This document shows, one piece after another, positions 10,529 to 38,662 of a stretch of DNA of 38,662 bases (positions are counted from its first letter, which is position 1; every line of letters begins with the position of its first letter). The stretch lies in IMG/VR virus record IMGVR_UViG_2541047816_000001; one strand, 5' to 3'. The stretch comes from a virus (taxonomy: Duplodnaviria > Heunggongvirae > Uroviricota > Caudoviricetes). The position numbers were made by a program, and so were the translations under genes. The notes beneath the pieces were generated by a model that worked only from the letters and a program-made list of their open reading frames with translations, did no database searches and was not told where the DNA came from.

Positions 10529-10543
10529 ATATAGGACTTAGCT

Positions 10544-11455
10544 ATGGATTGCTTAGATGTAACCTATTGGACTGAGCTAGATGTTTTCGCACAGTATCCT
10601 GTTGGTGCTCGCTCTAAGGCATTGGTTATTTCCCCTGATGTTGCCCCCCATGGTATCAAAGCATCGTGGCCGTATCTTTTTAAGAGAAGTATTAAAAAAT
10701 ACCCAGATCAATTTTGGTGTGAGATCGTTGCCTACAGGATTGGATTGCAGCTTGGTTTTAATGTCCCCAAAGCAGTTCCTTCGTTAAAGACTAATGATTT
10801 GGGGCATACGTTTTGCGGGGCCCTCATTGAGTGGTTTCATCATAAAGATTATGAGAAATTTGCTCCCGCTGGTGATTACTTTGTTCGAAGAGATCCAAAT
10901 TTTGATCGTGAGAAAGGAGCTAAGCATTCCATTGAAGGGCTGAGGATTATCGCGAAAGCTCTTAAAGTTGACTATGTTGAGTGGTTGGAGAATATGGCTC
11001 TCTTTGACGCAGTAATAGGTAATACAGATAGACATCAAGAAAACTGGGGGTTTATCTTCTCCCCTTTAACCAGCGAGTGTCAGCTTGCACCATTTTTCGA
11101 TAATGGTACGAGCTTATGCTACGAACGCTTTCCGGAACATGTTGCTGATTGGACCGATCATAGACTCAGGGAGCATGTTAGCCGGGGAAAGCATCATTTG
11201 CGTAAAACTCTGGGCAAAGATGAGTATCAGAGATTAGGTCATTTAGAGTTAATCAAAGAACTTTGTGATAAAAAAGAAGAATTAAAACAGCGGGTAGCTG
11301 AAAGACTGGCTCGTTTGAACCATGACTTTTGGGACTCAACTTTTGCGGAGTTGACGGAAATAAACTGCCCTGTTCCGCTGACTAGAGAACGTGCTGCATG
11401 GATTGTTCGTGTAACAAACATGCGTATTGAACTGATTAAAGGTGTTACTTCATGA
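10544..11455 (+). CDS. HipA-family Ser/Thr kinase core lacking the HipA N-subdomain (HipT-like)
   Basis: Three HipA kinase motifs in correct order and spacing: G21-ARSK (cf. HipA GAQEK), IGNTDRHQEN at 158-167 (catalytic loop, cf. HipA GATDGHAKN), FFDNGTS at 184-190 (Mg-binding, cf. HipA FYDI); 303 aa. Confidence 0.6.
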   Translation: MDCLDVTYWTELDVFAQYPVGARSKALVISPDVAPHGIKASWPYLFKRSIKKYPDQFWCEIVAYRIGLQLGFNVPKAVPSLKTNDLGHTFCGALIEWFHHKDYEKFAPAGDYFVRRDPNFDREKGAKHSIEGLRIIAKALKVDYVEWLENMALFDAVIGNTDRHQENWGFIFSPLTSECQLAPFFDNGTSLCYERFPEHVADWTDHRLREHVSRGKHHLRKTLGKDEYQRLGHLELIKELCDKKEELKQRVAERLARLNHDFWDSTFAELTEINCPVPLTRERAAWIVRVTNMRIELIKGVTS

Positions 11456-12156
11456 CTATCTTAATAGAAAAAATTCCCATGCCAAGTAGGCTCTTACTGA
11501 CATGGCAACCGACCGACGGCGGCTCTCGCTATGTCGTTGGTGAACTTCTTCAAGATGAGTCTGAAGGCTACGAGTTTAATTATCTTACGGATAGCAAAGA
11601 TTTTGCTAAAGCTGGGGATAAAGGCTTTCACGGTTTTCCTGCTTTTGACATAAAAGTTACGACTCATCGCAAAGACGTTATGCAAACCTTTTCAAGAAGG
11701 TTACCCTCCAGGAAAAGAGAAGATTTTGCCGATTACTTGCTGACGTTTCGTCTTCCTGCTGATTTTAGAGAGAATGACTTCGTTTTGCTCGCTTGTACTG
11801 GCGGAAAAGTGGCTAGTGATGGTTTTTATTTTGTCCCAGACTTGTCTTCTATTCGGCCACCTTTTGATTATGTCATGGAGGTCGCCGGAACGAGACACAT
11901 GATTAAGGAAGGGCGTCTAGCTCTTGACGAGATATCAATTGGTGATGAAGTCATATTGCGCAATGAAGATACCAATACTGTTGATCCGCTGGCCATATTA
12001 GTAACGAAAAACGACAATCATCTAGGGTATGTCAACAAGGCATTGTGCGCCGCATTACGAGATCTTAGTAAAAACCATGATATCAGTGGAGTGGTCGTAC
12101 GTAAAAATGGCTCTTCGGATAGGCCTTTGATTTATGCAAAAGTATCTGTTAGATGA
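11452..12156 (+). CDS. HipS-like N-domain fused to C-terminal HIRAN domain
   Basis: N-terminus LLTW...VGEL...F.Y pattern parallels the HipA N-subdomain (LVTW..VGEL..FKY); C-terminus GDEVILRNEDTNTVDPLAILVTKNDNHLGYVNKALCAALRDL fits the HIRAN signature; start overlaps kinase stop by 4 nt (ATGA). Confidence 0.5.
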   Translation: MTILIEKIPMPSRLLLTWQPTDGGSRYVVGELLQDESEGYEFNYLTDSKDFAKAGDKGFHGFPAFDIKVTTHRKDVMQTFSRRLPSRKREDFADYLLTFRLPADFRENDFVLLACTGGKVASDGFYFVPDLSSIRPPFDYVMEVAGTRHMIKEGRLALDEISIGDEVILRNEDTNTVDPLAILVTKNDNHLGYVNKALCAALRDLSKNHDISGVVVRKNGSSDRPLIYAKVSVR

Positions 12157-24342: not shown

Positions 24343-24940
24343 TCTGCTGCCACCGGGTTCAACACCACTGGAGCGCCGACTGGCGCAAACCTGCAGCGGG
24401 ATTTCTGATCTGCAGGTGCCGCTTCGTGACTTGTGGAATCCGGCAACCTGTCCGGTCAGTTTCCTGCCTTATCTCGCCTGGGCGTTCTCTGTGGATCGCT
24501 GGGACGAGGGCTGGACAGAAAGCGTCAAGCGCCAGGTGGTGAAGGATGCTTTTTATATTCATCAGCATAAAGGGACCACCAGTGCCGTGCGGCGGGTGGT
24601 GGAGCCGTTCGGCTTTCTGATCCGCATTATTGAGTGGTGGCAAACCGGAGAGGCACCGGGCACGTTTCGCCTGGATATCGGCGTGCAGGACCAGGGCATC
24701 ACTGAAGATACCTATCTGGAACTTGAGCGACTGATAAGCGATGCCAAACCATGTAGCCGCCACATGATCGGCATGTCCATCAATCTGCAGACCAGCGGCC
24801 CGCATTGGGTGGGAGCCGCCAGCTATCTTGGCGAAGAAATCACGATCTATCCGTATATCAACGAAACGATTATTTCCGGTGGCACCGCGCATGAAGGCGG
24901 GGCGGTCCATGTTATTGACACAATGAGAGTGAATCCATGA
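24335..24940 (+). CDS. I: Baseplate protein (P2 gpI-like)
   Basis: 201 aa; GGAGGAACGG RBS; P2 order. Confidence 0.7.
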   Translation: MNSLLPPGSTPLERRLAQTCSGISDLQVPLRDLWNPATCPVSFLPYLAWAFSVDRWDEGWTESVKRQVVKDAFYIHQHKGTTSAVRRVVEPFGFLIRIIEWWQTGEAPGTFRLDIGVQDQGITEDTYLELERLISDAKPCSRHMIGMSINLQTSGPHWVGAASYLGEEITIYPYINETIISGGTAHEGGAVHVIDTMRVNP

Positions 24941-26361
24941 GCACAAAATTTTATACCCTGCTGACGGATATTGGCGCGGCGAAACTTGCCAGCGCCGCCG
25001 CGCTCGGTGTGCCGCTAAAAATTACCCATATGGCGGTGGGCGATGGCGGCGGAGCATTGCCGACGCCGGACGCAAAGCAGACGGCACTGGTAAATGAGAA
25101 ACGCCGGGCTGCGCTGAATATGCTCTATATCGACCCGCAGAACAGCAGCCAGATTATTGCTGAACAGGTGATCCCTGAAAACGAGGGCGGTTGGTGGATA
25201 CGTGAAGTGGGCCTGTTTGATGAGTCAGGGGCATTGATTGCCGTGGGGAACTGCCCGGAAAGCTATAAACCGCAACTGGCTGAAGGCAGCGGGCGTACCC
25301 AGACCGTGCGCATGGTGCTGATTACCAGCAGCACGGACAATATCACCCTGAAAATCGACCCTGCCGTAGTGCTGGCAACCCGCAAGTATGTGGATGACAA
25401 GGTACTGGAGCTGAAGGTGTACGTGGATGATCAGATGGCAAAACATCTTGCCGCACCGGACCCGCATTCACAGTATGCACCCAAAGAAAGTCCGACGTTT
25501 ACCGGGACACCAAAAGCGCCAACGCCAGCGGCAGGGAATAACACCACGCAGGTTGCGACCACCGCGTTTGTTCAGGCGGCACTGACGGCCCTGATTAATG
25601 GTGCGCCAGCCACGCTGGACACGCTGAAAGAATTAGCCGCAGCCATTAACAATGATCCGAAATTCAGTACCACCATTAACAATGCGCTGGCACTGAAAGC
25701 GCCGCTGTCAAGTCCGGAACTCACCGGAACGCCAACAGCCCCCACTGCCGCACAGTCGGTTAACAATACACAGATTGCCACCACGGCTTTTGTGAAATCG
25801 GCGATTGCGGCAATGGTGGGTTCTGCACCTGCGGCACTGGATACACTGAACGAACTGGCGGCGGCGCTGGGGAATGACCCGAACTTTGCCACGACAATGC
25901 TTAATGCGCTGGCAGGTAAACAACCGCTGGACAATACGCTGACTAATTTGAGTGGAAAGGATGTCGCTGGTCTTCTCACATACCTTGGTTTAGGAGAAGC
26001 GGCGAAAACGATTGGCGTTCCGTTAGTTTGTCCGTCCGCTGCAATGGGAGCTTTCGTTACCGATACGGGATGGGGTATGGTGTCAGTGGGGTACAATGTC
26101 CAGTTTGTCACTGCCTCTGATAACCCGGTCCGCTCGATCGTGTTACCGGTGCTTATATTACCCCCCAATCAGCCGGTTGTTTTACGTATTTGGAAGTATG
26201 AGCCCGTGAAGTCTGTCGGATGGAACCCACTCACGCGGGTATTACCCATAAATTTTGATCATACAAACAATATAGCGTGGTGTGCGGGAGCCGGGGATAC
26301 CTCACAAAGTGCCAGGGACAGTTTTATCCCAGGAGGACGGTATACATACAGTGATGGGTGA
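24937..26361 (+). CDS. H: Tail fibre protein (P2 gpH-like) with invertible C-terminal segment
   Basis: 474 aa; internal repeats (TQVATTAFV / TQIATTAFV; LDTLKELAAAINNDPKF / LDTLNELAAALGNDPNF); C-terminal part after a hix-like site is paralogous to the inverted ORF at 27429-27923. Confidence 0.8.
   Translation: MSTKFYTLLTDIGAAKLASAAALGVPLKITHMAVGDGGGALPTPDAKQTALVNEKRRAALNMLYIDPQNSSQIIAEQVIPENEGGWWIREVGLFDESGALIAVGNCPESYKPQLAEGSGRTQTVRMVLITSSTDNITLKIDPAVVLATRKYVDDKVLELKVYVDDQMAKHLAAPDPHSQYAPKESPTFTGTPKAPTPAAGNNTTQVATTAFVQAALTALINGAPATLDTLKELAAAINNDPKFSTTINNALALKAPLSSPELTGTPTAPTAAQSVNNTQIATTAFVKSAIAAMVGSAPAALDTLNELAAALGNDPNFATTMLNALAGKQPLDNTLTNLSGKDVAGLLTYLGLGEAAKTIGVPLVCPSAAMGAFVTDTGWGMVSVGYNVQFVTASDNPVRSIVLPVLILPPNQPVVLRIWKYEPVKSVGWNPLTRVLPINFDHTNNIAWCAGAGDTSQSARDSFIPGGRYTYSDG
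25973..25998. repeat. 26-bp hix/gix-like recombination site (left inverted repeat of invertible segment), inside H
   Basis: TTCTCACATACCTTGGTTTAGGAGAA; pseudo-palindromic, related to the right-hand site; encodes the ..GLGE.. junction. Confidence 0.55.
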
Positions 26362-27428
26362 TCAGTGCCGATAAAAGTGCGTTTTCCTATGGTGCGCTTA
26401 TAATTGCGTATTATTAACTCGGCTAGTGTCCAACGGATTGAAGAAATTTGTGCGACAGTATTGCCGGAGAACTGATGACGGAATCTCGAGTAGGACTATA
26501 CGGAGATGGCATCGACGTGAAGCCTGCTTGGAATGAAATTGGACCGCCAACAGAGGCGGGAGAAATTCCCTCAGCCTATCATAAAGCGGTACCGTATGTT
26601 AATCAGGTCTACTCATATATATACATTAATCAATGGCCTGGTATACCCGCCTGTGCTCGCCGTATTGATGCGGGACAAGAGATACCTAGAATATGGGCAG
26701 TTTTTCCGGGTGCGCTATAGCTGGTCGATACAGCCGATCCCCCTGAGATCGTTTGGCCTACGCAAACTGGCGTACCGGTCAGAGTGCATTAGACCCGTTC
26801 CTCGAATGACTTTCCGTTCCCGCTTTCATCTATAACGCCACACGATTAAGTGGAGTGTTTTAAAGCGGTGACAGCTTCCGAGCCGCAGGATATTGCAGCT
26901 GTATAAGACGGATAAGCGCCGTGCCAGCCTCTGTTTGCTACTGCAGTGGCGTTCATCCCTCTGCTACAGCGGCGATTTGAGGCCCGTCGGAAGCCGTCGC
27001 CCACATCTAACCCCCGAATTTACCCTATGCCGTTTAATATGGAAGCGTTGCCGACACGTGATAGGAGGCCCGGGCATAATGTCATGTAGCATGTGCGCCA
27101 GGTTGCGTTGGGCATACAGTATCTTTGCGATCGTCAGTTTCAACGCGCTACCCTTTATCCAGATAAACTGCCCCTTATTTCTAAATCGTTTGGTCCGGGT
27201 CATTCAGACTGGCAAACGCGGCCATACTAGCTCATGTCTTAATGTATTCGTATTCGTTGCCCGGATATTCAAACTTTTGTTCATCCTGTTAGGCTGCACC
27301 CATTTGTCCCGGAAGAGTAGCCGGCGCAATTTCATTACAAGCAGGTATCCTTTCTAAGCCATCACCATATATTCCTTTGCGATATTTCTTCATAAGTTTT
27401 GCGTCACTACTGTTCCCCTATTCGCTCC

Positions 27429-27923
27429 CTAACGCTTGCCATTCGCAGGGCTCATGACACGCGATGTGAAAGGCACCAGGAGACCGCGTATGTTTATCTG
27501 AACTATACCCATGTTACTGCATGTAGCCCGTCTTCCTGAAATTACTCTGAACCGGTCTCTTCGTGAGGCATCACTGGTTCCCACACGCCACTCTGAATTG
27601 TTGGCATGATCAATAATTATGGACGATTCCCCTGTGAGTGGATTACACCCGTCTGCCATCACGGCCCCGGCCTTCCCGCTGACTGAGAAAACACGCCGTG
27701 CGTGGGGTGATGCCAGGACGGGACCACTTATCGCGCGCATAGTGTTACCTGAAACAGTGCATTTCTGAACAATATATTTCAATGATAGCCTGCAGCACCA
27801 GGTATCAAAAGCGAATGCTCCCATATCCGCTGTCTGACTAACTAATGGACCGCCAACAGTTGGAGCTCCTTCTCCCAAACCAACGTTTAAGAAAATGCAG
27901 CGATTACGACTAACTGGCATCAT
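27429..27923 (-). CDS. Alternative tail-fibre C-terminal segment in inverted orientation (promoterless until inversion)
   Basis: Minus-strand ORF paralogous to the H C-terminus (..GAPTVGGPLVSQTADMGAFAFDT.. vs ..AKTIGVPLVCPSAAMGAFVTDT..; ..IIIDHANNSEWRVGTSDASRRDRF.. vs ..INFDHTNNIAWCAGAGDTSQSARDSF..). Confidence 0.6.
   Translation of the reverse strand: MMPVSRNRCIFLNVGLGEGAPTVGGPLVSQTADMGAFAFDTWCCRLSLKYIVQKCTVSGNTMRAISGPVLASPHARRVFSVSGKAGAVMADGCNPLTGESSIIIDHANNSEWRVGTSDASRRDRFRVISGRRATCSNMGIVQINIRGLLVPFTSRVMSPANGKR
27870..27895. repeat. 26-bp hix/gix-like recombination site (right inverted repeat of invertible segment)
   Basis: TTCTCCCAAACCAACGTTTAAGAAAA; resembles hixL as I recall it; right half matches the reverse complement of the 25973-25998 site. 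Confidence 0.55.
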
Positions 27924-27950
27924 CCCCGGTTTTTATTCAGGGGATTGATC

Positions 27951-28517
27951 ATGCTTATTGGCTATGTACGCGTGTCAACAAATGACCAGAACACAGATTT
28001 GCAACGTAATGCACTGAACTGCGCGGGATGTGAGCGGATTTTTGAGGACAAAATCAGTGGCACTAAGCCCGACAGACCGGGGCTTAAAAAACTGCTCAGG
28101 ACACTATCGGTTGGAGACACTCTGGTTGTCTGGAAGCTGGACAGGTTGGGGCGCAGTATGCGGCATCTTGTTACGCTGATAGAAGAGTTGCGTCAGCGTG
28201 GCGTGAATTTCCGAAGCCTGACTGACAGTATTGATACCAGCACCCCAATGGGCCGTTTCTTTTTTCATGTCATGGGGGCCCTGGCTGAAATGGAACGCGA
28301 ACTGATAGTTGAACGTACCAGGGCGGGGCTGGCTGCAGCTCGTGATAAAGGCAGAGTAGGTGGACGCCGTCCTAAGTTGACCACCGAACAGTGGGCACAG
28401 ATTGGACGCTTACTCGAGGCCGGAGAATCAAGACAGCGTATTGCACTGATTTTTGATGTGGGTGTTTCCACAATTTATAGAAAATTTCCGGCAAATAAGA
28501 GTAATGAATCCCCCTGA
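27951..28517 (+). CDS. Serine DNA invertase (Hin/Gin/Pin/Cin family)
   Basis: N-terminal MLIGYVRVSTNDQ with catalytic Ser, resolvase domain, C-terminal HTH; adjacent to the invertible tail-fibre segment. Confidence 0.85.
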   Translation: MLIGYVRVSTNDQNTDLQRNALNCAGCERIFEDKISGTKPDRPGLKKLLRTLSVGDTLVVWKLDRLGRSMRHLVTLIEELRQRGVNFRSLTDSIDTSTPMGRFFFHVMGALAEMERELIVERTRAGLAAARDKGRVGGRRPKLTTEQWAQIGRLLEAGESRQRIALIFDVGVSTIYRKFPANKSNESP

Positions 28518-28659: not shown

Positions 28660-29832
28660 ATGGCTCAGGATTACCACCACGGGGTGCGCGTTGTTGAAGT
28701 CAACGAAGGTACCCGATCCATTACCACGGTGAGCACCGCCATCGTGGGCATGGTCTGCACGGGCGATGATGCCGATGCAAAAATGTTTCCTCTTAATAAA
28801 CCCGTGCTGATCACTGATGTGCTGACTGCCAGCGGTAAAGCGGGTGAGTCCGGCACGCTGGCCCGTTCGCTGGATGCCATCGCTGACCAGGCAAAACCCG
28901 TGACCGTTGTTGTGCGTGTGCCGCAGGGTGAAACGGAAGAAGAAACCACGACCAATATCATCGGCGCAGTGACTGCTGAAGGTAAAAAAACAGGCATGAA
29001 AGCCCTGTTATCTGCCCAGACACAGCTCGGCGTTAAACCGCGCATTCTCGGCGTGCCAGGTCACGATAACAAAGCCGTTGCGACTGAGTTGCTGAGTGTG
29101 GCGCAAAGCCTGCGTGGGTTTGCCTACCTGTCAGCGTATGGCTGCAAGACGGTACAGGAGGCGATCACTTACCGTGAAAACTTCAGCCAGCGCGAAGGAA
29201 TGCTGATCTGGCCCGACTTTACTGGCTGGGACACGGTGCTGAATGCCGAAGCAACGGCATATGCCACCGCCCGTGCGCTTGGTCTGCGTGCCAAAATTGA
29301 TGAGCAGACTGGGTGGCACAAAAGCCTGTCCAACGTGGGCGTGAACGGTGTCACCGGAATTTCTGCAGATGTGTTCTGGGATCTGCAGGACCCGGCAACC
29401 GATGCAGGTCTGCTGAACCAGAACGACGTCACCACGCTTGTGCGTAAAGACGGTTTACGCTTTTGGGGTTCCCGCTGCCTGAGTGATGACCCGCTCTTTG
29501 CTTTCGAAAACTACACCCGCACGGCGCAGGTGCTGACGGACACAATGGCAGAAGCGCACATGTGGGCAGTGGACAAACCGCTGAACCCGTCGCTGGCGCG
29601 CGACATTATCGAGGGCATCCGCGCCAAAATGCGCAGCCTGGTCAGTCAGGGGTATCTCATTGGTGGTGATTGCTGGCTGGACGAGTCGGTGAACGACAAA
29701 GACACTCTGAAAGCCGGAAAACTCACCATCGACTACGACTACACGCCAGTGCCGCCACTTGAAAATCTGATGTTGCGTCAGCGCATCACCGATCAGTACC
29801 TGGTGAATTTCGCCAGCCAGGTCAGCGCGTAA
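28660..29832 (+). CDS. FI: Tail sheath protein (P2 gpFI-like)
   Basis: 390 aa; position before tube and tape-measure genes. Confidence 0.85.
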
Positions 29833-29841
29833 GGGGACAAC

Positions 29842-30357
29842 ATGGCTTTACCACGCAAATTAAAACACCTGAACCTGTTTAACGACGGGAACAACTGGCA
29901 GGGGAGCGTTGAGTCGCTGACGCTGCCGAAATTCACCCGCAAATATGAGAAGTATCGCGGCGGCGGAATGCCGGGTGCAGTGGATGTGGATCTGGGGCTT
30001 GATGACAGTGCTCTGGACACAGAATTTTCCATTGGTGGTACTGAACTGCTGCTGTTTAAACAGATGGGCAAAGCCACGGTGGATGGCATCCAGTTGCGCT
30101 TTACCGGCTCTATCCAGCGTGATGATACCGGGGAAGTGCAGGCCGTGGAGCTTGTGGTGCGTGGACGTCACAAAGAAGTGGATTCCGGCGAGTGGAAGAC
30201 GGGCGAAAGCAACACCACCAAAGTGACCAGTACCAACAGCTACGCGAAGCTGACCATCAATGGTGAGGTGCTCTATGAAGTGGACCTTATCAACATGGTG
30301 GAAATTGTGAACGGTGTGGACCTGATGGAAGCGCACCGCAACGCCCTCGGCCTCTGA
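29842..30357 (+). CDS. FII: Tail tube protein (P2 gpFII-like)
   Basis: 171 aa; follows sheath gene. Confidence 0.8.
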   Translation: MALPRKLKHLNLFNDGNNWQGSVESLTLPKFTRKYEKYRGGGMPGAVDVDLGLDDSALDTEFSIGGTELLLFKQMGKATVDGIQLRFTGSIQRDDTGEVQAVELVVRGRHKEVDSGEWKTGESNTTKVTSTNSYAKLTINGEVLYEVDLINMVEIVNGVDLMEAHRNALGL

Positions 30358-30411
30358 TGTATCTGAACGGCGCGGGATTCCGCGCCAGAACCCAATTTAC
30401 AGGACAACAAA

Positions 30412-30714
30412 ATGAGCGATAAGCAGACTGAAAAGACCATTCAACTGGATACCCCCATCAAGCGCGGTAAAACAGAAATCACCGAAATTGTGCTGCGTAA
30501 ACCGCAGTCCGGTGCGCTGCGCGGTACACGCCTGCAGGCCATTATGGATATGGATGTAAACGCGATGATGACCGTGATCCCCCGCATCTCCAGTCCGGCA
30601 CTGACTGCACAGGAAATTGCAGAGATGGACCCGGCAGATCTCACTGCCATGTCGGTTGAGGTTGTCACTTTTTTGTTGAGGAAGTCGGTGCTTGCCGGTT
30701 TACCGACAGCCTGA
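30412..30714 (+). CDS. E: Tail assembly chaperone (P2 gpE-like)
   Basis: 100 aa; slippery TTTTTTG near its 3' end; precedes tape measure. Confidence 0.7.
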   Translation: MSDKQTEKTIQLDTPIKRGKTEITEIVLRKPQSGALRGTRLQAIMDMDVNAMMTVIPRISSPALTAQEIAEMDPADLTAMSVEVVTFLLRKSVLAGLPTA

Positions 30715-30848
30715 CGGTTGACGATCTGGTGGCAGATATCGCCACCATTTTTCACTGGCCGCCATCCGTTACTGACGTTATGCCGCTGACCGAAGTGCTG
30801 GAATGGCGGTATAAAGCGATTCAGAGAAGCGGGGCCAACGATGAGTGA
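30412..30848 (+). CDS. E+E' extended product via programmed -1 ribosomal frameshift
   Basis: Slippery heptamer TTTTTTG at 30669-30675; the -1 frame is open from there to a TGA at 30846-30848 overlapping the T start. Confidence 0.55.
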
Positions 30849-33800
30849 TAACAACCTGCGTCTGCAGGTCATTCTTAATGCGGTTGACAAGCTCACCCGC
30901 CCATTTCGATCTGCGCAGGCCAGTTCAAGAGAACTGGCTGCTGCTGTCAAAAAATCCCGCGATGCAATAAAGCAGCTTGATCAGGCCGGGAGCAGTCTGG
31001 ACAGCTTCCGAAAGCTGCAGGCAGAAAATCAGAAATTAGGCGACAGGCTGAACTATGCCCGCCAGCGTGCAAATTTGCTCAGTCAGGAACTGGGAGCGAT
31101 GGGGCCGCCTTCGCAACGTCAGGTTGTTGCTCTGGGCCGTCAACGGCTGGCTGTTCAGCGCCTGGAAGAACGCCAGAAAAAGCTGCAGCAGCAGACGGCG
31201 CTTGTGCGCGCTGAACTGTACCGGGCGGGAATTTCTGCGAAAGACGATGCGGGAGCAACTGCCCGTTTAGCCCGTGAAACATCACGTTATAACCAGGAAC
31301 TTTCGAAACAGGAGGCGCGGCTGAAGCGACTGGGGGAAGCTCAGCGCAGGATGAATGCAGCGCGTGCCAGTTATGCCCGTTCGCTGGAGGTGCGTGATCG
31401 TATTGCAGGTGCCGGAGCCACCACCACGGCTGCAGGGCTGGCAATGGGTGCGCCAGTGATGGCGGCAGTAAAAAGCTATACCAGCATGGAAGATGCCATG
31501 AAAGGTGTGGCAAAGCAGGTCAATGGTCTGCGTGACGATAATGGCAACCGCACTGCACGTTTTTATGAAATGCAGGATGCCATCAAGGCTGCCAGCGAAC
31601 AGTTGCCGATGGAAAACGGTGCGGTGGACTTCGCTGCACTGGTTGAAGGTGGTGCGCGCATGAACGTCGCAAACCCTGACGACAGCTGGGAAGATCAGAA
31701 ACGTGACCTGCTGGCCTTCGCCAGTACGGCAGCAAAGGCGGCAACAGCCTTTGAGCTGCCAGCGGATGAACTGTCAGAAAGTCTGGGGAAAATCGCCCAG
31801 CTCTACAAAATCCCCACCCGCAATATTGAACAGCTCGGTGATGCGCTGAACTATCTGGATGATAACGCCATGTCGAAAGGGGCAGACATCATTGATGTGA
31901 TGCAACGTCTGGGCGGTGTGGCTGACCGTCTGGATTATCGTAAAGCGGCGGCGCTGGGTTCCACCTTCCTGACACTGGGCGCTGCGCCAGAGGTTGCAGC
32001 CAGTGCAGCAAACGCGATGGTGCGTGAATTGTCCATTGCCACCATGCAAAGCAAGAGTTTCTTTGAAGGGATGAATCTGCTGAAACTCAATCCTGAAGTG
32101 ATTGAAAAGCAGATGACGAAGGATGCGATGGGAACCATCCAGCGCGTGCTGGAGAAGGTAAACGCGCTGCCGCAGGACAAGCGCCTGTCTGCCATGACTA
32201 TGTTGTTTGGTAAAGAGTTTGGCGATGACGCGGCGAAACTGGCAAACAACCTGCCGGAACTGCAGCGTCAGTTAAAACTGACAGCGGGCAATGATGCGCT
32301 CGGCTCCATGCAGAAAGAATCCGACATTAACAAGGATTCACTTTCTGCGCAGTGGTTGCTGGTCAAAACCGGAGCGCAGAACACCTTCAGCAGCCTGGGC
32401 GAAACGCTGCGCCAGCCGCTGATGGATATTCTGTACACGGTGAAAAGCGTCACGGGGGCGTTGCGTCGCTGGGTGGAAGCTAACCCGGAACTGACAGGCA
32501 CACTGATGAAAGCATCGGCTGTTGTGGCTGCGGTTACCGTCGGCCTCGGCACCTTAGCGGTGGCGCTGGCTGCAGTGCTGGGGCCGCTGGCAGTGATCCG
32601 TCTGGGATTCTCTGTGTTGGGTATCAAAACGTTATCTTCCGTTACGGCAGCAGTAACTCGAACCAGCAGCGCGTTGTCCTGGCTGGCTGGCGCACCACTG
32701 GCACTGCTGCGACGCGGGCTTGCTTCATCGGGCAACGCCGCAGGTTTACTTACTGCGCCGTTGTCGTCTTTGCGCCGCACGGCATCACTGACGGGAAATG
32801 TCCTGAAAACTGTAGCAGGTGCGCCGGTTGCACTTTTGCTGTCTGGATTATCCGGTTTACGTGCTGTTGCTGTGATGTTTATGAATCCTCTGGCGGTACT
32901 GCGCGGTGGACTGGCCGCCGCAGGCACGGTGCTGCGAGTACTGGCATCTGGTCCACTGGCGATGCTGCGCGTTGCCCTGTATGCCATATCTGGTCTGTTA
33001 GGTGCTCTGCTCAGTCCGATAGGTCTTGTGGTTACTGCACTGGCGGGCGTGGCGCTGGTTGTCTGGAAATACTGGCAACCCATCACCGCATTTCTCGGTG
33101 GCGTGGTGGAAGGATTCAAAGCGGCGGCAGGTCCCATCAGTGCAGCGTTCGAACCGCTTAAGCCCGTGTTCCAGTGGATTGGCGACAAAGTGCAGGCGCT
33201 GTGGGGCTGGTTTACTGATCTGCTGACGCCCGTTAAGTCGACCTCTGCCGAACTGCAGAGCGCAGCGGCAATGGGGCGGCGATTCGGGGAGGCACTGGCG
33301 GAAGGGCTGAATATGGTCATGCATCCGCTGGACTCCCTGAAATCCGGCGTTTCCTGGTTGCTGGAGAAGCTCGGCATTGTCAGTAAAGAGGCCGCAAAGG
33401 CAAAACTGCCGGAAAGCGTGACGCGTCAGCAACCTGCGACGGTGAATGCAGACGGTAAAGTGATGATGCCATCGGGTGGTTTTCCATCATGGGGATATGG
33501 CTTTGCGGGGATGTATGACAGCGGCGGGTATATCCCGCGCGGGCAGTTTGGCATCGTCGGTGAAAACGGGCCGGAAATTGTTAACGGCCCGGCAAATGTG
33601 ACCAGCCGGAGAAATACAGCTGCACTGGCTGCCGTTGTTGCCGGAATGATGGGCGTTGCTGCCGCGCCAGCAGAGCTTCCACCGTTGCACCCTTTGGCAC
33701 TTCCCGCGAAAGGTGGAGAAGCAATTGTGAGTCGCGCAGCCACTGTGCCGCTCGTTCAACGGATTGAGGCACCGACGCAGATCATCATTCAGACGCAGCC

Positions 33801-33918
33801 AGGACAAAGTGCGCAGGATATTGCGCGGGAGGTGGCACGCCAGCTTGATGAACGTGAACGCAGGCTGAAGGCAAAAGCCAGGAGTAACTACAGCGATCAG
33901 GGGGGATACGACGCATGA
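30841..33918 (+). CDS. T: Tail tape measure protein (P2 gpT-like)
   Basis: 1025 aa; Ala/Leu-rich coiled-coil N-terminus; position after E/E'. Confidence 0.85.
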   Translation: MSDNNLRLQVILNAVDKLTRPFRSAQASSRELAAAVKKSRDAIKQLDQAGSSLDSFRKLQAENQKLGDRLNYARQRANLLSQELGAMGPPSQRQVVALGRQRLAVQRLEERQKKLQQQTALVRAELYRAGISAKDDAGATARLARETSRYNQELSKQEARLKRLGEAQRRMNAARASYARSLEVRDRIAGAGATTTAAGLAMGAPVMAAVKSYTSMEDAMKGVAKQVNGLRDDNGNRTARFYEMQDAIKAASEQLPMENGAVDFAALVEGGARMNVANPDDSWEDQKRDLLAFASTAAKAATAFELPADELSESLGKIAQLYKIPTRNIEQLGDALNYLDDNAMSKGADIIDVMQRLGGVADRLDYRKAAALGSTFLTLGAAPEVAASAANAMVRELSIATMQSKSFFEGMNLLKLNPEVIEKQMTKDAMGTIQRVLEKVNALPQDKRLSAMTMLFGKEFGDDAAKLANNLPELQRQLKLTAGNDALGSMQKESDINKDSLSAQWLLVKTGAQNTFSSLGETLRQPLMDILYTVKSVTGALRRWVEANPELTGTLMKASAVVAAVTVGLGTLAVALAAVLGPLAVIRLGFSVLGIKTLSSVTAAVTRTSSALSWLAGAPLALLRRGLASSGNAAGLLTAPLSSLRRTASLTGNVLKTVAGAPVALLLSGLSGLRAVAVMFMNPLAVLRGGLAAAGTVLRVLASGPLAMLRVALYAISGLLGALLSPIGLVVTALAGVALVVWKYWQPITAFLGGVVEGFKAAAGPISAAFEPLKPVFQWIGDKVQALWGWFTDLLTPVKSTSAELQSAAAMGRRFGEALAEGLNMVMHPLDSLKSGVSWLLEKLGIVSKEAAKAKLPESVTRQQPATVNADGKVMMPSGGFPSWGYGFAGMYDSGGYIPRGQFGIVGENGPEIVNGPANVTSRRNTAALAAVVAGMMGVAAAPAELPPLHPLALPAKGGEAIVSRAATVPLVQRIEAPTQIIIQTQPGQSAQDIAREVARQLDERERRLKAKARSNYSDQGGYDA

Positions 33919-34400
33919 TGATGGTGCTGGGATTGTACGTGTTTATGCTGCGCACCGTTCCGTATCAGGAACTGCAGTATCAACGCAGCTGGCGACATGC
34001 GGCAAACAGTCGGGTAAACCGACGTCCGTCCACGCAGTTTCTGGGACCGGAAAACGACATGCTGACGCTTTCCGGTGTTCTTATGCCGGAAATAACAGGC
34101 GGCAGGCTGTCGTTGCTGGCACTGGAGCAGATGGCAGAACAGGGGAAAGCATGGCCCCTGATTGAAGGCAGCGGCACGATTTACGGCATGTATGTGATTG
34201 AGGGACTGAATCAGACTAAAACGGAGTTTTTCCGCGACGGTATGCCGCGCCGGATTGAGTTCACCCTGTCGCTCAAACGAGTGGATGAATCCCTGTCCGA
34301 TATGTTCGGTGATCTCAGTGCGCAACTGAATAATCTGCAGGACACGGCAACGTCTGCCTTAAGCGATATCAGTAAAACGGTGGGAGGGCTGCTGTCGTGA
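33915..34400 (+). CDS. U: Tail protein (P2 gpU-like)
   Basis: 161 aa; overlaps T stop; P2 order. Confidence 0.7.
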   Translation: MMMVLGLYVFMLRTVPYQELQYQRSWRHAANSRVNRRPSTQFLGPENDMLTLSGVLMPEITGGRLSLLALEQMAEQGKAWPLIEGSGTIYGMYVIEGLNQTKTEFFRDGMPRRIEFTLSLKRVDESLSDMFGDLSAQLNNLQDTATSALSDISKTVGGLLS

Positions 34401-35497
34401 ATTTCAGCTCTGAACTGCTTAACAAAGGCAACAAAACTCCCGCATTCAGCATCAGTATTGAGGGCAGGGATATCACCACTGTGCTGGATAACCGCCTGAT
34501 GAGTTTGACGCTGACGGATAACCGGGGCTTTGAAGCGGACCAGCTTGATCTGGAGCTGGATGACGCTGACGGAAAAATCGTGCTGCCGCGCCGTGGTGCG
34601 GTTATTACGCTGGCGCTGGGCTGGAAGGGGCAGCCGCTTTTCCCGAAAGGGGCATTCACAGTGGACGAGATTGAACACACTGGCGCACCGGACCGCCTGA
34701 CTATCCGGGCGCGAAGTGCTGATTTTCGGGAAACGCTGAATACCCGCCGTGAAAAATCGTGGCATAAGACCACCGTTGGGGAAGTGGTGAAGGAAATAGC
34801 CGCGCGGCACAAGCTGAAGATGGCACTGGGTAAAGACCTGTCGGATAAGCCCGTGGAGCATATAGACCAGACTAATGAGAGTGACGGCAGTTTTCTGATG
34901 CGGCTGGCGCGACAGTACGGTGCCATCGCGTCGGTGAAAAATGGCAATCTGTTATTCATCCGGCAGGGGCAGGGCAAAAGCGCCACTGGTAAACCTCTGC
35001 CAGTGATCACTATCACACGCAAGGACGGCGACAGTCACCGATTTACCCTGGCAGATCGCGGAGCCTACACGGGCGTAATTGCCAGCTGGTTGCATACCCG
35101 CGAACCTGCGAAGAAAGAAAGCACCACGGTGAAGCGTAAGCGCAGAACTAAGAAGCAGAAGAAAGAGCCAGAAGCGAAGCAGGGCGATTACCTGGTGGGT
35201 ACGGATGAAAACGTGCTGGTACTTAATCGCACTTATGCCAACCGGAGCAACGCCGAACGAGCGGCGAAAATGCAGTGGGAACGCCTGCAACGCGGCGTTG
35301 CGTCATTTTCGCTACAACTGGCAGAAGGGCGGGCAGATCTCTACACGGAAATGCCTGTGAAGGTCAGTGGTTTTAAACAGCCGATAGATGATGCGGAATG
35401 GACCATTACGACTCTGACGCATACCGTCAGCCCGGATAACGGTTTTACGACCAGTTTGGAGCTTGAAGTGAGGATTGATGATTTCGAAATGGAATGA
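34397..35497 (+). CDS. D: Tail protein / late control protein (P2 gpD-like)
   Basis: 366 aa; last late structural gene before ogr. Confidence 0.75.
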   Translation: MNFSSELLNKGNKTPAFSISIEGRDITTVLDNRLMSLTLTDNRGFEADQLDLELDDADGKIVLPRRGAVITLALGWKGQPLFPKGAFTVDEIEHTGAPDRLTIRARSADFRETLNTRREKSWHKTTVGEVVKEIAARHKLKMALGKDLSDKPVEHIDQTNESDGSFLMRLARQYGAIASVKNGNLLFIRQGQGKSATGKPLPVITITRKDGDSHRFTLADRGAYTGVIASWLHTREPAKKESTTVKRKRRTKKQKKEPEAKQGDYLVGTDENVLVLNRTYANRSNAERAAKMQWERLQRGVASFSLQLAEGRADLYTEMPVKVSGFKQPIDDAEWTITTLTHTVSPDNGFTTSLELEVRIDDFEME

Positions 35498-35587
35498 TTC
35501 TTCGCAATGGAGAACTTTTAAGTTTGCAAAATGGAATAATGCGGTATCATTATTGTGAATTTAGCAAAAATGGGGAGAACTCGAAAA

Positions 35588-35806
35588 ATGATGATTTGCC
35601 CACTGTGTGGAAGTGCCGCCCATACTCGCAGCAGTTTTCAGGTATCTTCATTGACCAAAGAGCGTTACAACCAGTGCCAGAATATTAACTGCAGCCATAC
35701 TTTTGTAACCCATGAAACTTTTGTTCGTTCGATTGCAACGCCAAAAGAGTCAAATCCGGTTCAGCCGCATCCAATGAAATCAGGACAGGTGGCGCTCTCT
35801 CTTTGA
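35588..35806 (+). CDS. ogr: Late gene transcriptional activator, Ogr-type zinc finger
   Basis: 72 aa MMICPLCGSAAHTRSS...CQNINCSHTF with Cys4 pattern, similar to P2 Ogr as I recall it; ATG 35588 with GGGGAGA RBS. Confidence 0.8.
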   Translation: MMICPLCGSAAHTRSSFQVSSLTKERYNQCQNINCSHTFVTHETFVRSIATPKESNPVQPHPMKSGQVALSL

Positions 35807-35882
35807 CGCTGCCGCCATTTTGTCGCCATCGTTAAAAAACAGTGCTTCTAACGTCATGATTTTAATCGGCATAAATTTCAGA

Positions 35883-35929
35883 CAACAAAAAACCCATCAA
35901 CCTTGAACCGAAATGGTGGGGTTGATGGG
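35883..35929 (-). terminator. Rho-independent terminator of ybjL (minus strand)
   Basis: CCCATCAACC/GGTTGATGGG hairpin followed on the minus strand by a T-run (TTTTTTGTTG). Confidence 0.55.
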
Positions 35930-36042
35930 CTCCACAAAATGGGGACATCAAAGAAAAGCAGTGGCACTAATTAAGACTGATGCCCTGCGGAAAAGTTCTG
36001 CGGTTGTGCAAAAAAAATTTCATTTTCAGGGCAACTTCAGTT

Positions 36043-37728
36043 TTATCCTAATCCTGGCCATACCATGACGATGATTGTCCCTGCCAGCGTCAGCAGGACG
36101 TTGGCGATTGCATAGGTGCCCGCATAGCCCAGCGCCGGGATGTTACTGCGAGCTGTATCACTGATGATCTCCATTGCCGGCGCGCAGGTGCGTGCGCCCA
36201 TCATTGCGCCGAATAACAGTGCGCGGTTCATTCGCAATACATAAGCACCGAACAAGAAACAGATAACCACTGGCACAAGACTGACAATCAATCCGGCAAT
36301 CAACATCTGACCGCCAATCGCGCCCAGGCCGTTATTAATACCGCTACCGGCGCTCAGACCAACGCCTGCCATAAACACCATTAAGCCGAACTCTTTCACC
36401 ATGCTTAATGCACCCTGCGGAATGTAACCGAAGGTCGGGTGGTTAGCGCGCATAAAGCCCAGCATAATTCCGGCGAATAACAACCCGGCAGCGTTCCCCA
36501 TGCCGAAACTGAATGTGCTGAACTGGAAGGTGATCATCCCGATCATCAGCCCAATAACAAAGAAGGCGCAGAATGCCAGCAAGTCAGTGACCTGGCTGTG
36601 AATCGAGATAAAGCCGATGCGATCGGCGATGGTTTTTACGCGACGGGCATCGCCGCTGACTTGTAAAACGTCACCTTTGTTAAGCACGACGTTGTCATCT
36701 ATCGGCATCTCAATCTGGCTACGAATGACGCGGTTAAGGAAGCAACCGTGATCGGTCAACTTCAGTTGTGCGAGACGTTTGCCCACGGCGTTATGGTTTT
36801 TAACGACCACTTCTTCAGTGACGATACGCATGTCGAGAAGGTCACGATCGAAAACTTCTTTGCCGTTACGGAAGCTGGGATCGAGTCGTGCGTGGGCGTC
36901 GGGATAGCCTACCAACGCTATTTCATCGCCCATTTGTAGCACAGCATCACCGTCTGGATTCGCCAGAATCCCGTTACGTCGAATACGTTCAATGTAGCAG
37001 CCAGTTTGTCGATAAATACCCAGTTCACGCAGATTTTTGCCGTCGGTCCAGGCCACCAGCTCCGGGCCGACGCGGTAGGCGCGGATCACCGGTAAATAAA
37101 CCTTACGGTTGGCATCAGTGTCCAGGCCACGTTCGCGGGCGATTTGCTGGGCGCTGGTCTGTAAGTCCTGATGCTGCAATTTCGGCAAGTAACGCGCACC
37201 AACAATCAAACTCACCAGACCGATTAAATAGGTTAAGGCATACCCGAGGCTCAGATTATCCAGTGCCAGTGAGAGTTGCCTGCTTTCCATGCCGGAATGA
37301 CGCAGTGTATCGCCAGCACCGACCAGAACCGGTGTCGACGTCATAGAGCCAGCTAACATACCGGCCGTCAGGCCAATATCCCAGCCAAACAGCTTACCTA
37401 ACCCTAAGGCGATCACCAGCGCACTGCCAACCATCACCAGTGCTAACATTAGGTAATTTTTCCCATCGCGAAAAAAAATGGAAAAAAAGTTCGGTCCGGC
37501 TTCGACCCCGACGCAGAAAATAAACAGCATAAAGCCAAGATTAAGCGCGTCGGTGTTAATGCTGAAATGTTGTTGGCCTAATAACAGCGATACGACTAAA
37601 ACGCCAATGGAATTACCCAGTTGGATCGAACCAAGTCGTAATTTCCCGAGACATAGCCCAAGCGCGAGGACCACAAATAATAACAGAATGTAATTCCCAT
37701 TTAACAATTCGGCGACGTTTATATTCAC
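36043..37728 (-). CDS. ybjL: Putative transport protein YbjL (two membrane domains flanking cytoplasmic regulatory domains)
   Basis: 561-aa ORF recognised as E. coli YbjL from sequence ([33 protein letters not shown]...); GC and codon usage typical of chromosome. Confidence 0.85.
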
Positions 37729-37997
37729 GGAGGCTAACTTCTTGTTTACTAGTAAGCTGTTGAAAGAAATGGTAATTTACGATAATGTTTTTTACCAGAA
37801 TTCAGGGCGCAGATTCATTCAGCGCACCTAAACGATAGTAAAGTAACAATATATTTTACTAGTGTAATCACATTAGGTATCAACGGCTATATGAATTGCG
37901 TTGGCCTATATTAGCATGGAATGCGAAGCGGCTTTATCTTACTGAACGCCACACTGGCGAAAAATGTGTTCGATAGACGCAGTGTCAGGAGGAACGA

Positions 37998-38375
37998 GTG
38001 AAACATAAACAACGTTGGGCGGGGGCAATCTGCTGTTTTGTCCTCTTCATTGTGGTGTGTCTTTTTCTGGCGACGCACATGAAAGGCGCTTTTCGGGCTG
38101 CCGGGCATCCTGAAATCGGTTTGCTATTTTTCATTCTTCCTGGTGCAGTTGCCAGCTTCTTTTCACATCGTAGAGAAGTCCTGAAACCTCTGTTTGGCGC
38201 AATGCTGGCGGCACCCTGTTCGATGCTCATTATGCGGCTGTTTTTTTCACCGACGCGCTCATTCTGGCAAGAGCTGGCATGGTTATTAAGTGCGGTGTTC
38301 TGGTGTGCGCTGGGGGCATTGTGTTTCTTATTTATCAGTAGTTTGTTTAAACCACAGCACAGAAAAAATCAATAA
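37998..38375 (+). CDS. ybjM: Inner membrane protein YbjM
   Basis: 125-aa hydrophobic protein; conserved neighbour between ybjL and grxA in E. coli. Confidence 0.75.
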   Translation: MKHKQRWAGAICCFVLFIVVCLFLATHMKGAFRAAGHPEIGLLFFILPGAVASFFSHRREVLKPLFGAMLAAPCSMLIMRLFFSPTRSFWQELAWLLSAVFWCALGALCFLFISSLFKPQHRKNQ

Positions 38376-38394
38376 AGCCCTCAACGCGAGGGCT
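38376..38394. terminator. Hairpin between convergent ybjM and grxA (possible bidirectional terminator)
   Basis: AGCCCTC-AACGC-GAGGGCT stem-loop right after the ybjM stop; flanking T-runs weak. Confidence 0.35.
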
Positions 38395-38404
38395 TGTCAG
38401 ACGG

Positions 38405-38662
38405 TCAGGCGTCCAGATTCTCTTTCGCCCATGCAGCAAAATCGGTATAGCCGCCGATATGTTGCTGATCGACAAAAATCTGCGGCACGGTTTCTACGGG
38501 TTTACCTGCCTTTTGTTGTAGATCTTCTTTAGTGATCCCTTCCGCACGAATATCTACATACTGATACTGGAAATCATCGCGTTCATTGCTCAATTTCTCA
38601 GCCAGATCTTTTGCACGCACACAGTAAGGGCAACCCGGACGACCAAAAATAACGGTTTGCAT
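38405..38662 (-). CDS. grxA: Glutaredoxin 1
   Basis: 85 aa with CPYC active site (MQTVIFGRPGCPYCVRAKDL...); start codon at the window edge. Confidence 0.9.
   Translation of the reverse strand: MQTVIFGRPGCPYCVRAKDLAEKLSNERDDFQYQYVDIRAEGITKEDLQQKAGKPVETVPQIFVDQQHIGGYTDFAAWAKENLDA

What the first reader, a model, noticed from the sequence alone, without database searches (positions are those of the whole stretch)
30669..30848. Programmed -1 frameshift site producing the E+E' tail chaperone
Seen: TTTTTTG at 30669-30675 near the end of E; the -1 frame is open for 58 codons to a stop overlapping the tape-measure start. Established knowledge: a conserved frameshift between the two genes upstream of the tape measure gene occurs throughout tailed phages, including P2 E/E'.
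Basis: partly seen in the sequence, partly recalled or inferred. Interest (0 to 1): 0.2.

Follow-up and report, generated by a model that had tools for sequence, protein, structure and literature searches.

The report
P2-type tail chaperone frameshift site
This is the well-known programmed -1 ribosomal frameshift that lets a P2-like prophage of E. coli make two tail-assembly chaperones (E and the longer E+E') from one start codon; it is real, conserved and ordinary.

Summary
TTTTTTG lies at 30669-30675 in the phase T_TTT_TTG of gene E (30412-30714), 12 codons before the E stop. The -1 frame is open from 30660 to a TGA at 30846-30848, which overlaps the tape-measure ATG at 30841.

E matches Pfam Phage_TAC_7 and the -1-frame segment matches Phage_P2_GpE. 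The genes sit between tail tube FII and tape measure T. The predicted 145-aa fusion is 49% identical to P2 gpE+E', whose GenBank record marks a -1 frameshift at the same heptamer.

In all 60 complete related loci, E' lies in the -1 frame and an in-phase X_XXY_YYZ heptamer lies in the overlap. The T6 run is invariant in 43 distinct close relatives, including at two synonymous sites. Sequence variation shifts from the third codon position of frame 0 to that of frame -1 downstream of the site.

Two rivals are poorly supported: separate initiation of a 39-aa E', as RefSeq annotates it, and transcriptional slippage. A hairpin just downstream of the heptamer was not supported.

Two minor leads remain: a Shine-Dalgarno-like GAGG 7 nt upstream, kept by synonymous codon choice, and a hairpin at 30727-30747.

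Verdict: already known, low interest.

The parts
29842..30357 (+). Tail tube gene FII, the upstream neighbour
   Evidence: Pfam Phage_tube 4.3e-60
30412..30714 (+). Gene E: zero-frame tail assembly chaperone, 100 aa, stop TGA at 30712-30714
   Evidence: ORF and translation. Pfam PF10109 Phage_TAC_7 1e-18. PHROG 103 'tail protein' 7e-44. Variation concentrated at codon position 3 of frame 0: entropy 0.42/0.26/1.02 for positions 1/2/3.
30658..30662 (+). Candidate upstream element: Shine-Dalgarno-like GAGGU, 7 nt 5' of the heptamer (its function is inferred, not shown)
   Evidence: The 8-mer here is in the top 0.4% of anti-SD matches within E in the window, and is the strongest in the gene in most relatives. 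The Glu codon at 30658 is GAG in 42 of 43 sequences, whereas Glu codons elsewhere in E are 79% GAA. The spacing is shorter than the 9-14 nt reported for -1 stimulation (PMC5009743).
30669..30675 (+). Slippery heptamer T_TTT_TTG, the site of the -1 shift
   Evidence: Sequence and phase. Same heptamer at the homologous position as the annotated P2 site. T6 invariant in 43 distinct relatives, including the synonymous sites 30669 and 30672. An in-phase heptamer is present in 60 of 60 loci.
30676..30714 (+). Dual-coding overlap: the E C-terminal tail in frame 0 and the start of E' in frame -1
   Evidence: Low variability with little difference between the three codon positions, 0.33-0.48
30675..30848 (+). 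E' segment read in the -1 frame: 57 codons plus TGA stop, giving a 145-aa E+E'
   Evidence: Translation. Pfam PF06528 Phage_P2_GpE 4e-19. PHROG 1756 and 6416. Variation concentrated at position 3 of the -1 frame, 0.26/0.11/0.65. This also holds for the five codons 30714-30728, which lie upstream of any start codon.
30727..30747 (+). Candidate hairpin UGGUGGC-N7-GCCACCA followed by UUUUU, inside E' (role unknown)
   Evidence: Terminator-like match. 96.2% of cells paired in 38 distinct sequences, with one G-C to A-U double change. Suggestive only.
30841..33918 (+). Tape measure gene T; its ATG overlaps the E' stop (ATGAGTGA, 30841-30848)
   Evidence: Pfam PhageMin_Tail 2e-18. The overlap is conserved in close relatives and in P2.

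Best explanation
Ribosomes that start at the E ATG (30412) normally stop at 30712-30714 and make the 100-aa protein E. When TTT (30670-72) is in the P site and TTG (30673-75) is in the A site, a minority of ribosomes slip back one nucleotide. Both tRNAs can re-pair on TTT TTT. Reading continues with GTT at 30675 in the -1 frame and ends at TGA 30846-30848. This gives a 145-aa E+E' with 88 shared N-terminal residues and 57 new ones. By analogy with lambda gpG/gpGT, the shared E part would coat the tape measure protein T. The E' extension would recruit the tail tube protein so that the tube polymerises to the measured length. The low shift frequency would fix the ratio of the two proteins.

Shown here: the sequence anatomy, the homology of both frames, the conservation of the site and purifying selection on the -1 frame. 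Inferred: the slip itself, its frequency and the chaperone role. The slip was demonstrated experimentally only for P2.
For: - **Phase and position:** in-phase T_TTT_TTG, 12 codons before the E stop.
- **Family hits:** PF10109 in frame 0 and PF06528 in frame -1.
- **Context:** the genes sit between tube FII and tape measure T.
- **P2 homology:** 49% identity to P2 E+E', matched as two tblastn pieces one frame apart. The P2 record annotates the frameshift at the same heptamer, and PMC3091744 describes it.
- **Conservation across loci:** 60 of 60 loci have E' in the -1 frame and an in-phase X_XXY_YYZ in the overlap. Two homologs carry heteropolymeric heptamers instead of a T run: G_GGA_AAG/A_AAG_GGC and C_CCT_TTC.
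- **Nucleotide-level selection:** T6 is invariant in 43 distinct sequences, including at the synonymous sites 30669 and 30672, while other third positions have a mean entropy of 1.02.
- **Frame switch in variation:** codon-position variation moves from frame 0 to frame -1. It is already in frame -1 in codons 30714-30728, which have no upstream start codon in that frame.
Against: - No protein or reporter data exist for this prophage.
- The heptamer alone occurs at chance frequency in the window.
- No canonical 3' stimulatory structure is supported.
- RefSeq and most phage records annotate E' as a separate 39-aa CDS.
- The codon at that annotated start is ATG or GTG in 12 of 17 lineages, so some independent initiation cannot be excluded.
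Confidence: 0.93

Rival explanations
1. E' is a free-standing 39-aa protein initiated at GTG 30729, as RefSeq/PGAP and many phage records annotate it ('GpE family phage tail protein'). On this reading no frameshift is needed.
For: Separate CDS annotations exist in E. coli RefSeq and in phages SEN8, Cartapus, Klebsiella phages and YenM_42.18. GTG 30729 is invariant in 43 of 43 relatives, including its third position. The aligned codon is ATG or GTG in 12 of 17 lineages.
Against: - The five codons 30714-30728 just upstream of the GTG vary almost only at position 3 of the -1 frame, so they are translated.
- There is no ATG, GTG or TTG in the -1 frame between the heptamer and 30729.
- The 18-residue linker is conserved with P2, ENT90 and YenM_42.18 at the protein level.
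- The anti-SD match upstream of the GTG is the weakest of the operon's starts, -3.0 kcal/mol.
- The aligned codon is ATT, TGG, GCC, GTT or ATC in five lineages.
- P2 is annotated as making the fusion.
- The invariant GTG can also be explained by its pairing in the 30727-30747 hairpin.
Confidence: 0.04
2. The -1 frame is reached by transcriptional slippage. RNA polymerase adds one extra U on the T6 run, and standard translation of that mRNA subpopulation gives E+E'.
For: The site is a homopolymeric T run, six T here and seven in some relatives. An extra U would give the same frame change.
Against: The review PMC5009743 describes bacterial transcriptional slippage on runs of 9 A or T; here the run is 6. 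The run keeps the X_XXY_YYZ phase in every T-type locus. Two homologs replace it with heteropolymeric heptamers (G_GGA_AAG, C_CCT_TTC) that cannot support polymerase slippage but are classical ribosomal shift sites.
Confidence: 0.03

Closest known systems
Bacteriophage P2 gpE / gpE+E' (FETUD operon; Christie et al. 2002, cited in PMC3091744 and PMC5009743)
   Same: Same gene order, FI-FII-E-(E')-T-U-D. Same Pfam families in the two frames. Same TTTTTTG heptamer at the homologous position and in the same phase. In both, the E' stop overlaps the T start. The fusion is 49% identical to P2's.
   Different: Here E is 100 aa and E+E' 145 aa, against 91 and 142 aa in P2. The heptamer is 36 nt before the E stop here and 18 nt in P2. 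The residue before the run is Thr here and Gly in P2. No experiments exist for this prophage.
Phage lambda gpG / gpGT tail assembly chaperones (Levin 1993; Xu, Hendrix and Duda 2004, 2013, 2014, as summarised in PMC5009743)
   Same: Two overlapping ORFs between the major tail protein gene and the tape measure gene. A -1 shift near the end of the first ORF. A short and a long protein that share the N-terminus. The review describes a fixed low ratio of the two as crucial for tail assembly.
   Different: No detectable sequence similarity was seen here. Lambda uses G_GGA_AAG and has a non-contractile tail. The review states that P2-type efficiency is 2- to 3-fold higher than lambda's.
E. coli dnaX -1 frameshift (A_AAA_AAG with a 5' Shine-Dalgarno stimulator and a 3' stem-loop)
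   Same: A tandem-slippage heptamer with an anti-SD-complementary motif upstream.
   Different: The spacing here is 7 nt, against the 9-14 nt reported for -1 stimulation. No 3' stem-loop is supported. The dnaX efficiency of about 50% is not expected here.

Membership tests
P2-type E/E+E' frameshifted tail assembly chaperone | Located between the tail tube gene (FII) and the tape measure gene (T) | tested here: met
   Phage_tube at 29842-30357 and PhageMin_Tail at 30841-33918, followed by GpU and GPD
P2-type E/E+E' frameshifted tail assembly chaperone | Zero-frame ORF homologous to gpE | tested here: met
   PF10109 Phage_TAC_7 at 1e-18, 67.5 bits against a cut-off of 25. 44% identity to P2 E by tblastn.
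P2-type E/E+E' frameshifted tail assembly chaperone | -1-frame ORF homologous to the E' extension that overlaps the end of E | tested here: met
   PF06528 Phage_P2_GpE at 4e-19, 68.2 bits against a cut-off of 23. The -1 relation holds in 60 of 60 loci.
P2-type E/E+E' frameshifted tail assembly chaperone | In-phase slippery heptamer (TTTTTTG in P2) inside the overlap | tested here: met
   T_TTT_TTG at 30669-30675, aligned with the P2 site
P2-type E/E+E' frameshifted tail assembly chaperone | The -1 frame is under purifying selection as coding sequence, including codons that have no start codon of their own | tested here: met
   Entropy by codon position 0.26/0.11/0.65 in frame -1. Codons 30714-30728 show the same pattern.
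P2-type E/E+E' frameshifted tail assembly chaperone | Both E and E+E' are made from one start codon, and both are needed for tail assembly | not testable with these tools
   Needs protein detection and genetics. Known only for P2 (GenBank notes; PMC3091744).
Lambda G/GT-type conserved tail chaperone frameshift (Xu et al. 2004) | Two overlapping ORFs before the tape measure gene, joined by a slippery sequence | tested here: met
Lambda G/GT-type conserved tail chaperone frameshift (Xu et al. 2004) | The chaperones bind the tape measure and major tail proteins and are absent from virions | not testable with these tools
   Described for lambda in PMC5009743. No structure of a homolog is in the PDB.
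dnaX-type stimulated -1 frameshift | Shine-Dalgarno-like sequence 9-14 nt 5' of the shift site | tested here: not met
   GAGG(U) is present, but only 7 nt upstream. The spacing rule is from PMC5009743.
dnaX-type stimulated -1 frameshift | Stable stem-loop 5-9 nt 3' of the shift site, supported by covariation | tested here: inconclusive
   GUCGGU/ACCGAC (30684-89/30702-07) can pair in 91.9% of cells, but covariation is no better than in shuffles. The RNAalifold consensus energy is -1.95 kcal/mol. Fold z-scores are -1.6 and -2.0.
Transcriptional slippage site | Homopolymeric A or T run of about 9 or more | tested here: not met
   The run is six T. The run length of 9 is from PMC5009743.

The most novel reading that the evidence does not exclude
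The P2-type shift site may not be a bare heptamer. An anti-Shine-Dalgarno-complementary motif lies just upstream: GAGGU here, and GAGGUGGUC, AAGGUGGUC or AGGUGAUC in relatives. It is held in place by an unusual synonymous codon choice. It could be a conserved 5' modulator that acts at a spacing of about 7 nt, shorter than the 9-14 nt described for -1 sites. It might work together with the conserved hairpin at 30727-30747, and it might explain why P2-type efficiency exceeds lambda's.
Probability: 0.2. Interest if true: 0.35.

Novelty: already known. Interest (0 to 1): 0.1.

Why it matters
The biology is textbook recoding. The practical value is for annotation. In this prophage lineage the E' segment is annotated as a separate 39-aa 'GpE family phage tail protein' rather than as a ribosomal-slippage join. 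That is how RefSeq records it, and matching DNA is found in 999 of 5,426 complete E. coli genomes. As a result the real 145-aa product is missing from protein catalogues. The site is also a clean natural example of a U_UUU_UUG shift site with no supported 3' structure. It could be used to test whether a close upstream Shine-Dalgarno-like motif tunes -1 frameshifting.

Tried and rejected
- **Heptamer enrichment:** TTTTTTG is not enriched in the window, 15 against 11.7 expected. In-phase heptamers in genes occur at the random rate. The heptamer count alone is therefore not evidence.
- **Downstream hairpin as stimulator:** GUCGGU/ACCGAC lies 8 nt after the heptamer and looked compensatory in Klebsiella phages (GUCGGC/GCCGAC). 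Covariation on 37 distinct sequences was no better than in shuffles, and RNAalifold found no conserved structure. Rejected as unsupported. This agrees with PMC3091744, which reports no hairpins in P2-like phages.
- **Single-sequence folds:** z-scores of only -1.6 and -2.0.
- **Library searches:** NCBIfam gave no hit and PDB sequence search gave no hit.
- **Christie et al. 2002 (PMC135442):** not held, so P2 experimental details come second-hand from PMC3091744, PMC5009743 and the GenBank record.
- **Antisense ORF 30441-30950 (169 aa):** no Pfam hit. Its frame cannot account for the change in the variable codon position downstream of 30714. Treated as a shadow ORF.
- **Promoter scan of 30300-30950:** nothing found.

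Full report
**What is in the sequence**

The window reads ...GTT GAG GTT GTC ACT TTT TTG TTG AGG... with TTTTTTG at 30669-30675. The ORF 30412-30714 encodes a 100-aa protein. In its frame the heptamer falls as AC[T TTT TTG], which is the canonical X_XXY_YYZ phase, 12 codons before the stop.

The -1 frame has a stop at 30657-30659 and is then open to TGA 30846-30848. That TGA overlaps the ATG of the 1025-aa ORF at 30841 (ATGAGTGA). The region where both frames are open is only 55 nt.

A shift on the heptamer gives a 145-aa protein with 88 shared residues and 57 new ones. The coordinates and the description are correct.

**Is it more than chance?**

The heptamer alone is not. The window holds 15 TTTTTTG against 11.7 expected. 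In 35 likely genes of the window, in-phase X_XXY_YYZ heptamers occur 35 times in 10,396 codons, which is the random rate. About 0.06 are expected in an 18-codon overlap.

The E site is nevertheless distinctive. It lies near the 3' end of its gene and opens a long -1 ORF. The only other heptamer with both properties is one that doubles as the Shine-Dalgarno sequence of gene U. The real evidence comes from homology and conservation.

**Identity of the two frames and the context**

- The zero-frame protein matches Pfam PF10109 (Phage_TAC_7, 'tail assembly chaperone proteins E, or 41 or 14') at 1e-18.
- The -1-frame segment alone matches PF06528 (Phage_P2_GpE) at 4e-19. PHROGs agree.
- The neighbours are tail sheath (28660-29832), tail tube FII (29842-30357), tape measure (30841-33918), GpU (33915-34400) and GpD (34397-35497).
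- The window is a complete P2-like prophage, from integrase (1-1053) to Ogr (35555-35806), next to E. coli chromosomal genes.
- The 30300-30950 stretch (FII end, E/E', T start) is 100% identical to E. coli strains SF-173 and FDAARGOS_1283. Similar DNA is found in 999 of 5,426 complete E. coli genomes.
- The closest named phages are Escherichia phage 500465-1 (99.1%), Klebsiella phage KP12 (98.9%) and Cartapus (97%).

**Comparison with P2 and relatives**

tblastn of the reconstructed fusion against 50,697 phage records finds 425 records. Most of the records listed match as two pieces. P2 matches at 48.9% identity over 96% of the query.

The P2 record annotates E, a two-piece E+E' CDS noted as 'shares amino terminus with gpE; -1 frameshift; essential tail protein', and a misc_feature 'site of -1 translational frameshift'. 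PSP3 and KL3 carry equivalent joins. My reconstruction of P2 by the same rule gives 91 and 142 aa. Those are the lengths stated by Lynch et al. 2010, who also name TTTTTTG as the P2 site (PMC3091744).

A further 41 complete prophage loci from other Enterobacterales came from a scan of species-representative genomes. In all 60, the E' homolog is in the -1 frame relative to E, and an in-phase X_XXY_YYZ lies in the overlap.

- Most heptamers are T_TTT_TTG. Eight end in A, two in C and one in T.
- Mannheimia phage 587AP1 has G_GGA_AAG/A_AAG_GGC instead.
- Klebsiella phage ST16-OXA48phi5.4 has C_CCT_TTC instead.

These heteropolymeric replacements are classical ribosomal shift sites. They could not work by polymerase slippage.

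**Selection**

I aligned 43 distinct sequences of the close clade. Mean column entropy by codon position was:

| Region | Frame used | Position 1 | Position 2 | Position 3 |
|---|---|---|---|---|
| E-only, upstream of heptamer | frame 0 | 0.42 | 0.26 | 1.02 |
| Dual-coding overlap, 30676-30711 | frame 0 | 0.33 | 0.35 | 0.48 |
| E'-only, 30715-30845 | frame -1 | 0.26 | 0.11 | 0.65 |

So the -1 frame downstream of the E stop is a protein-coding frame under purifying selection.

The six T are invariant. This includes 30669 and 30672, which are synonymous third positions in E. That points to selection on the nucleotide sequence itself.

**Rival 1: separate initiation**

RefSeq and many phage records annotate a 39-aa 'GpE family phage tail protein' starting at the equivalent of GTG 30729. 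Several results argue against this as the route.

- The five codons 30714-30728 upstream of that GTG vary almost only at -1-frame position 3.
- No start codon exists in the -1 frame between the heptamer and 30729.
- The 18-residue linker is conserved with P2, ENT90 and YenM_42.18.
- The anti-SD match before the GTG is the weakest in the operon, -3.0 kcal/mol.
- The aligned codon is ATT, TGG, GCC, GTT or ATC in five lineages.

GTG 30729 is nonetheless invariant, and the aligned codon is ATG or GTG in 12 of 17 lineages. A minor independent product therefore cannot be excluded.

**Rival 2: transcriptional slippage**

The run is 6 T. The Atkins et al. review describes bacterial slippage on runs of 9 (PMC5009743). 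The phase is conserved, and heteropolymeric heptamers substitute for the run in two relatives.

**Stimulatory elements**

A 6-bp stem, GUCGGU/ACCGAC, lies 8 nt after the heptamer and looked attractive. Klebsiella phages carry GUCGGC/GCCGAC. On 37 distinct sequences, however, covariation is no better than in shuffles. RNAalifold gives -1.95 kcal/mol, and single-sequence z-scores are -1.6 and -2.0. I treat this stem as unsupported. That agrees with the reported absence of hairpins in P2-like phages.

Two other features deserve a note.

- **Upstream Shine-Dalgarno-like motif.** The best anti-SD-complementary 8-mer of the whole E gene sits just upstream of the heptamer in most lineages: TGAGGTTG here, GGAGGTGG, TAAGGTGG and CAGGTGAT elsewhere. 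The Glu codon that creates it is GAG in 42 of 43 sequences, although Glu is 79% GAA elsewhere in E. The spacing of 7 nt is shorter than the 9-14 nt reported for -1 stimulation, so its role is open.
- **Hairpin inside E'.** A 7-bp hairpin at 30727-30747, followed by UUUUU, is pairable in 96.2% of cells across 38 distinct sequences that include P2. It has one G-C to A-U double change, reached by 1 of 500 shuffles. This is suggestive only. The change is probably a single evolutionary event, and both arms encode a conserved peptide motif.

**Mechanism and function**

The most likely mechanism is tandem -1 slippage of tRNA-Phe and tRNA-Leu on U_UUU_UUG, yielding E and E+E' at a fixed low ratio. Function is inferred from lambda. 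There gpG and the G part of gpGT bind the tape measure protein, the T part recruits the tail tube protein, and neither ends up in the virion. The review states that P2-type efficiency is 2- to 3-fold higher than lambda's (PMC5009743). None of this was measured for this prophage.

**Verdict**

This is a member of the P2 E/E+E' system, which has been known since 2002. The interest is low. The useful by-products are an annotation correction and two small, testable leads about how the shift might be tuned.

Noticed in passing
window 30729-30848: RefSeq/PGAP and many phage records annotate E' as a separate 39-aa 'GpE family phage tail protein' starting at this GTG, not as a ribosomal-slippage join with E. 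As a result the 145-aa product is missing from protein sets. Matching DNA occurs in 999 of 5,426 complete E. coli genomes.
   Followed up: yes
window 30658-30662: A Shine-Dalgarno-like GAGGU lies 7 nt upstream of the heptamer. It is the strongest, or nearly the strongest, anti-SD match in gene E in most lineages. The Glu codon is GAG in 42 of 43 sequences, against 21% GAG elsewhere in E. The spacing is shorter than the 9-14 nt reported for -1 stimulators.
   Followed up: partly
window 30727-30747: A terminator-like hairpin, UGGUGGC-AGAUAUC-GCCACCA followed by UUUUU, lies inside the E' coding region. It is pairable in 96.2% of cells across 38 distinct relatives including P2, with one G-C to A-U double change. 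Its role is unknown. Pairing in this stem could also explain why GTG 30729 is invariant.
   Followed up: partly
window 33900-33906: An in-phase G_GGG_GGA lies three codons before the stop of tape measure gene T. The -1 frame from here runs straight into gene U, so a slip would give a T-U fusion. The run is also the Shine-Dalgarno sequence of U, and the ATGA overlap puts U in the -1 frame anyway. This is probably coincidence. Conservation was not checked.
   Followed up: no
window 30369-30386: A GC-only 7-bp hairpin, GGCGCGG-GATT-CCGCGCC, lies in the FII-E intergenic region, 12 nt after the FII stop, with no T tract after it. A Mannheimia phage record annotates a rho-independent terminator in the same intergenic position. 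It could set the ratio of sheath and tube mRNA to chaperone and tape measure mRNA.
   Followed up: no
window 9974-12156: A cargo cluster lies after replication gene A: an Rv2179c-like 3'-5' exonuclease (9974-10528), a HipA_C-like kinase domain protein (10544-11455) and a HIRAN-domain protein (11452-12156). It may be an accessory or defence module of the prophage.
   Followed up: no
window 24937-28517: A tail fibre gene (Phage_tail_fib N-terminal domain, 24937-26361) is followed by short ORFs on both strands and a serine DNA invertase (Resolvase plus HTH_7, 27945-28517). The layout resembles an invertible host-range segment. No inverted repeats were searched for.
   Followed up: no
window 30441-30950 (- strand): A 169-aa antisense ORF covers the whole E/E' region. 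It has no Pfam hit, and its frame cannot explain the switch of the variable codon position downstream of 30714. I treat it as a shadow ORF.
   Followed up: yes
window 1-1053 and 35555-38662: The prophage runs from the integrase (1-1053, - strand) to Ogr (35555-35806). The flanking host genes are an Asp-Al_Ex/TrkA_C transporter (36043-37728, - strand) and a glutaredoxin-like ORF (38405-38662, - strand). There is no tRNA gene in the window.
   Followed up: partly
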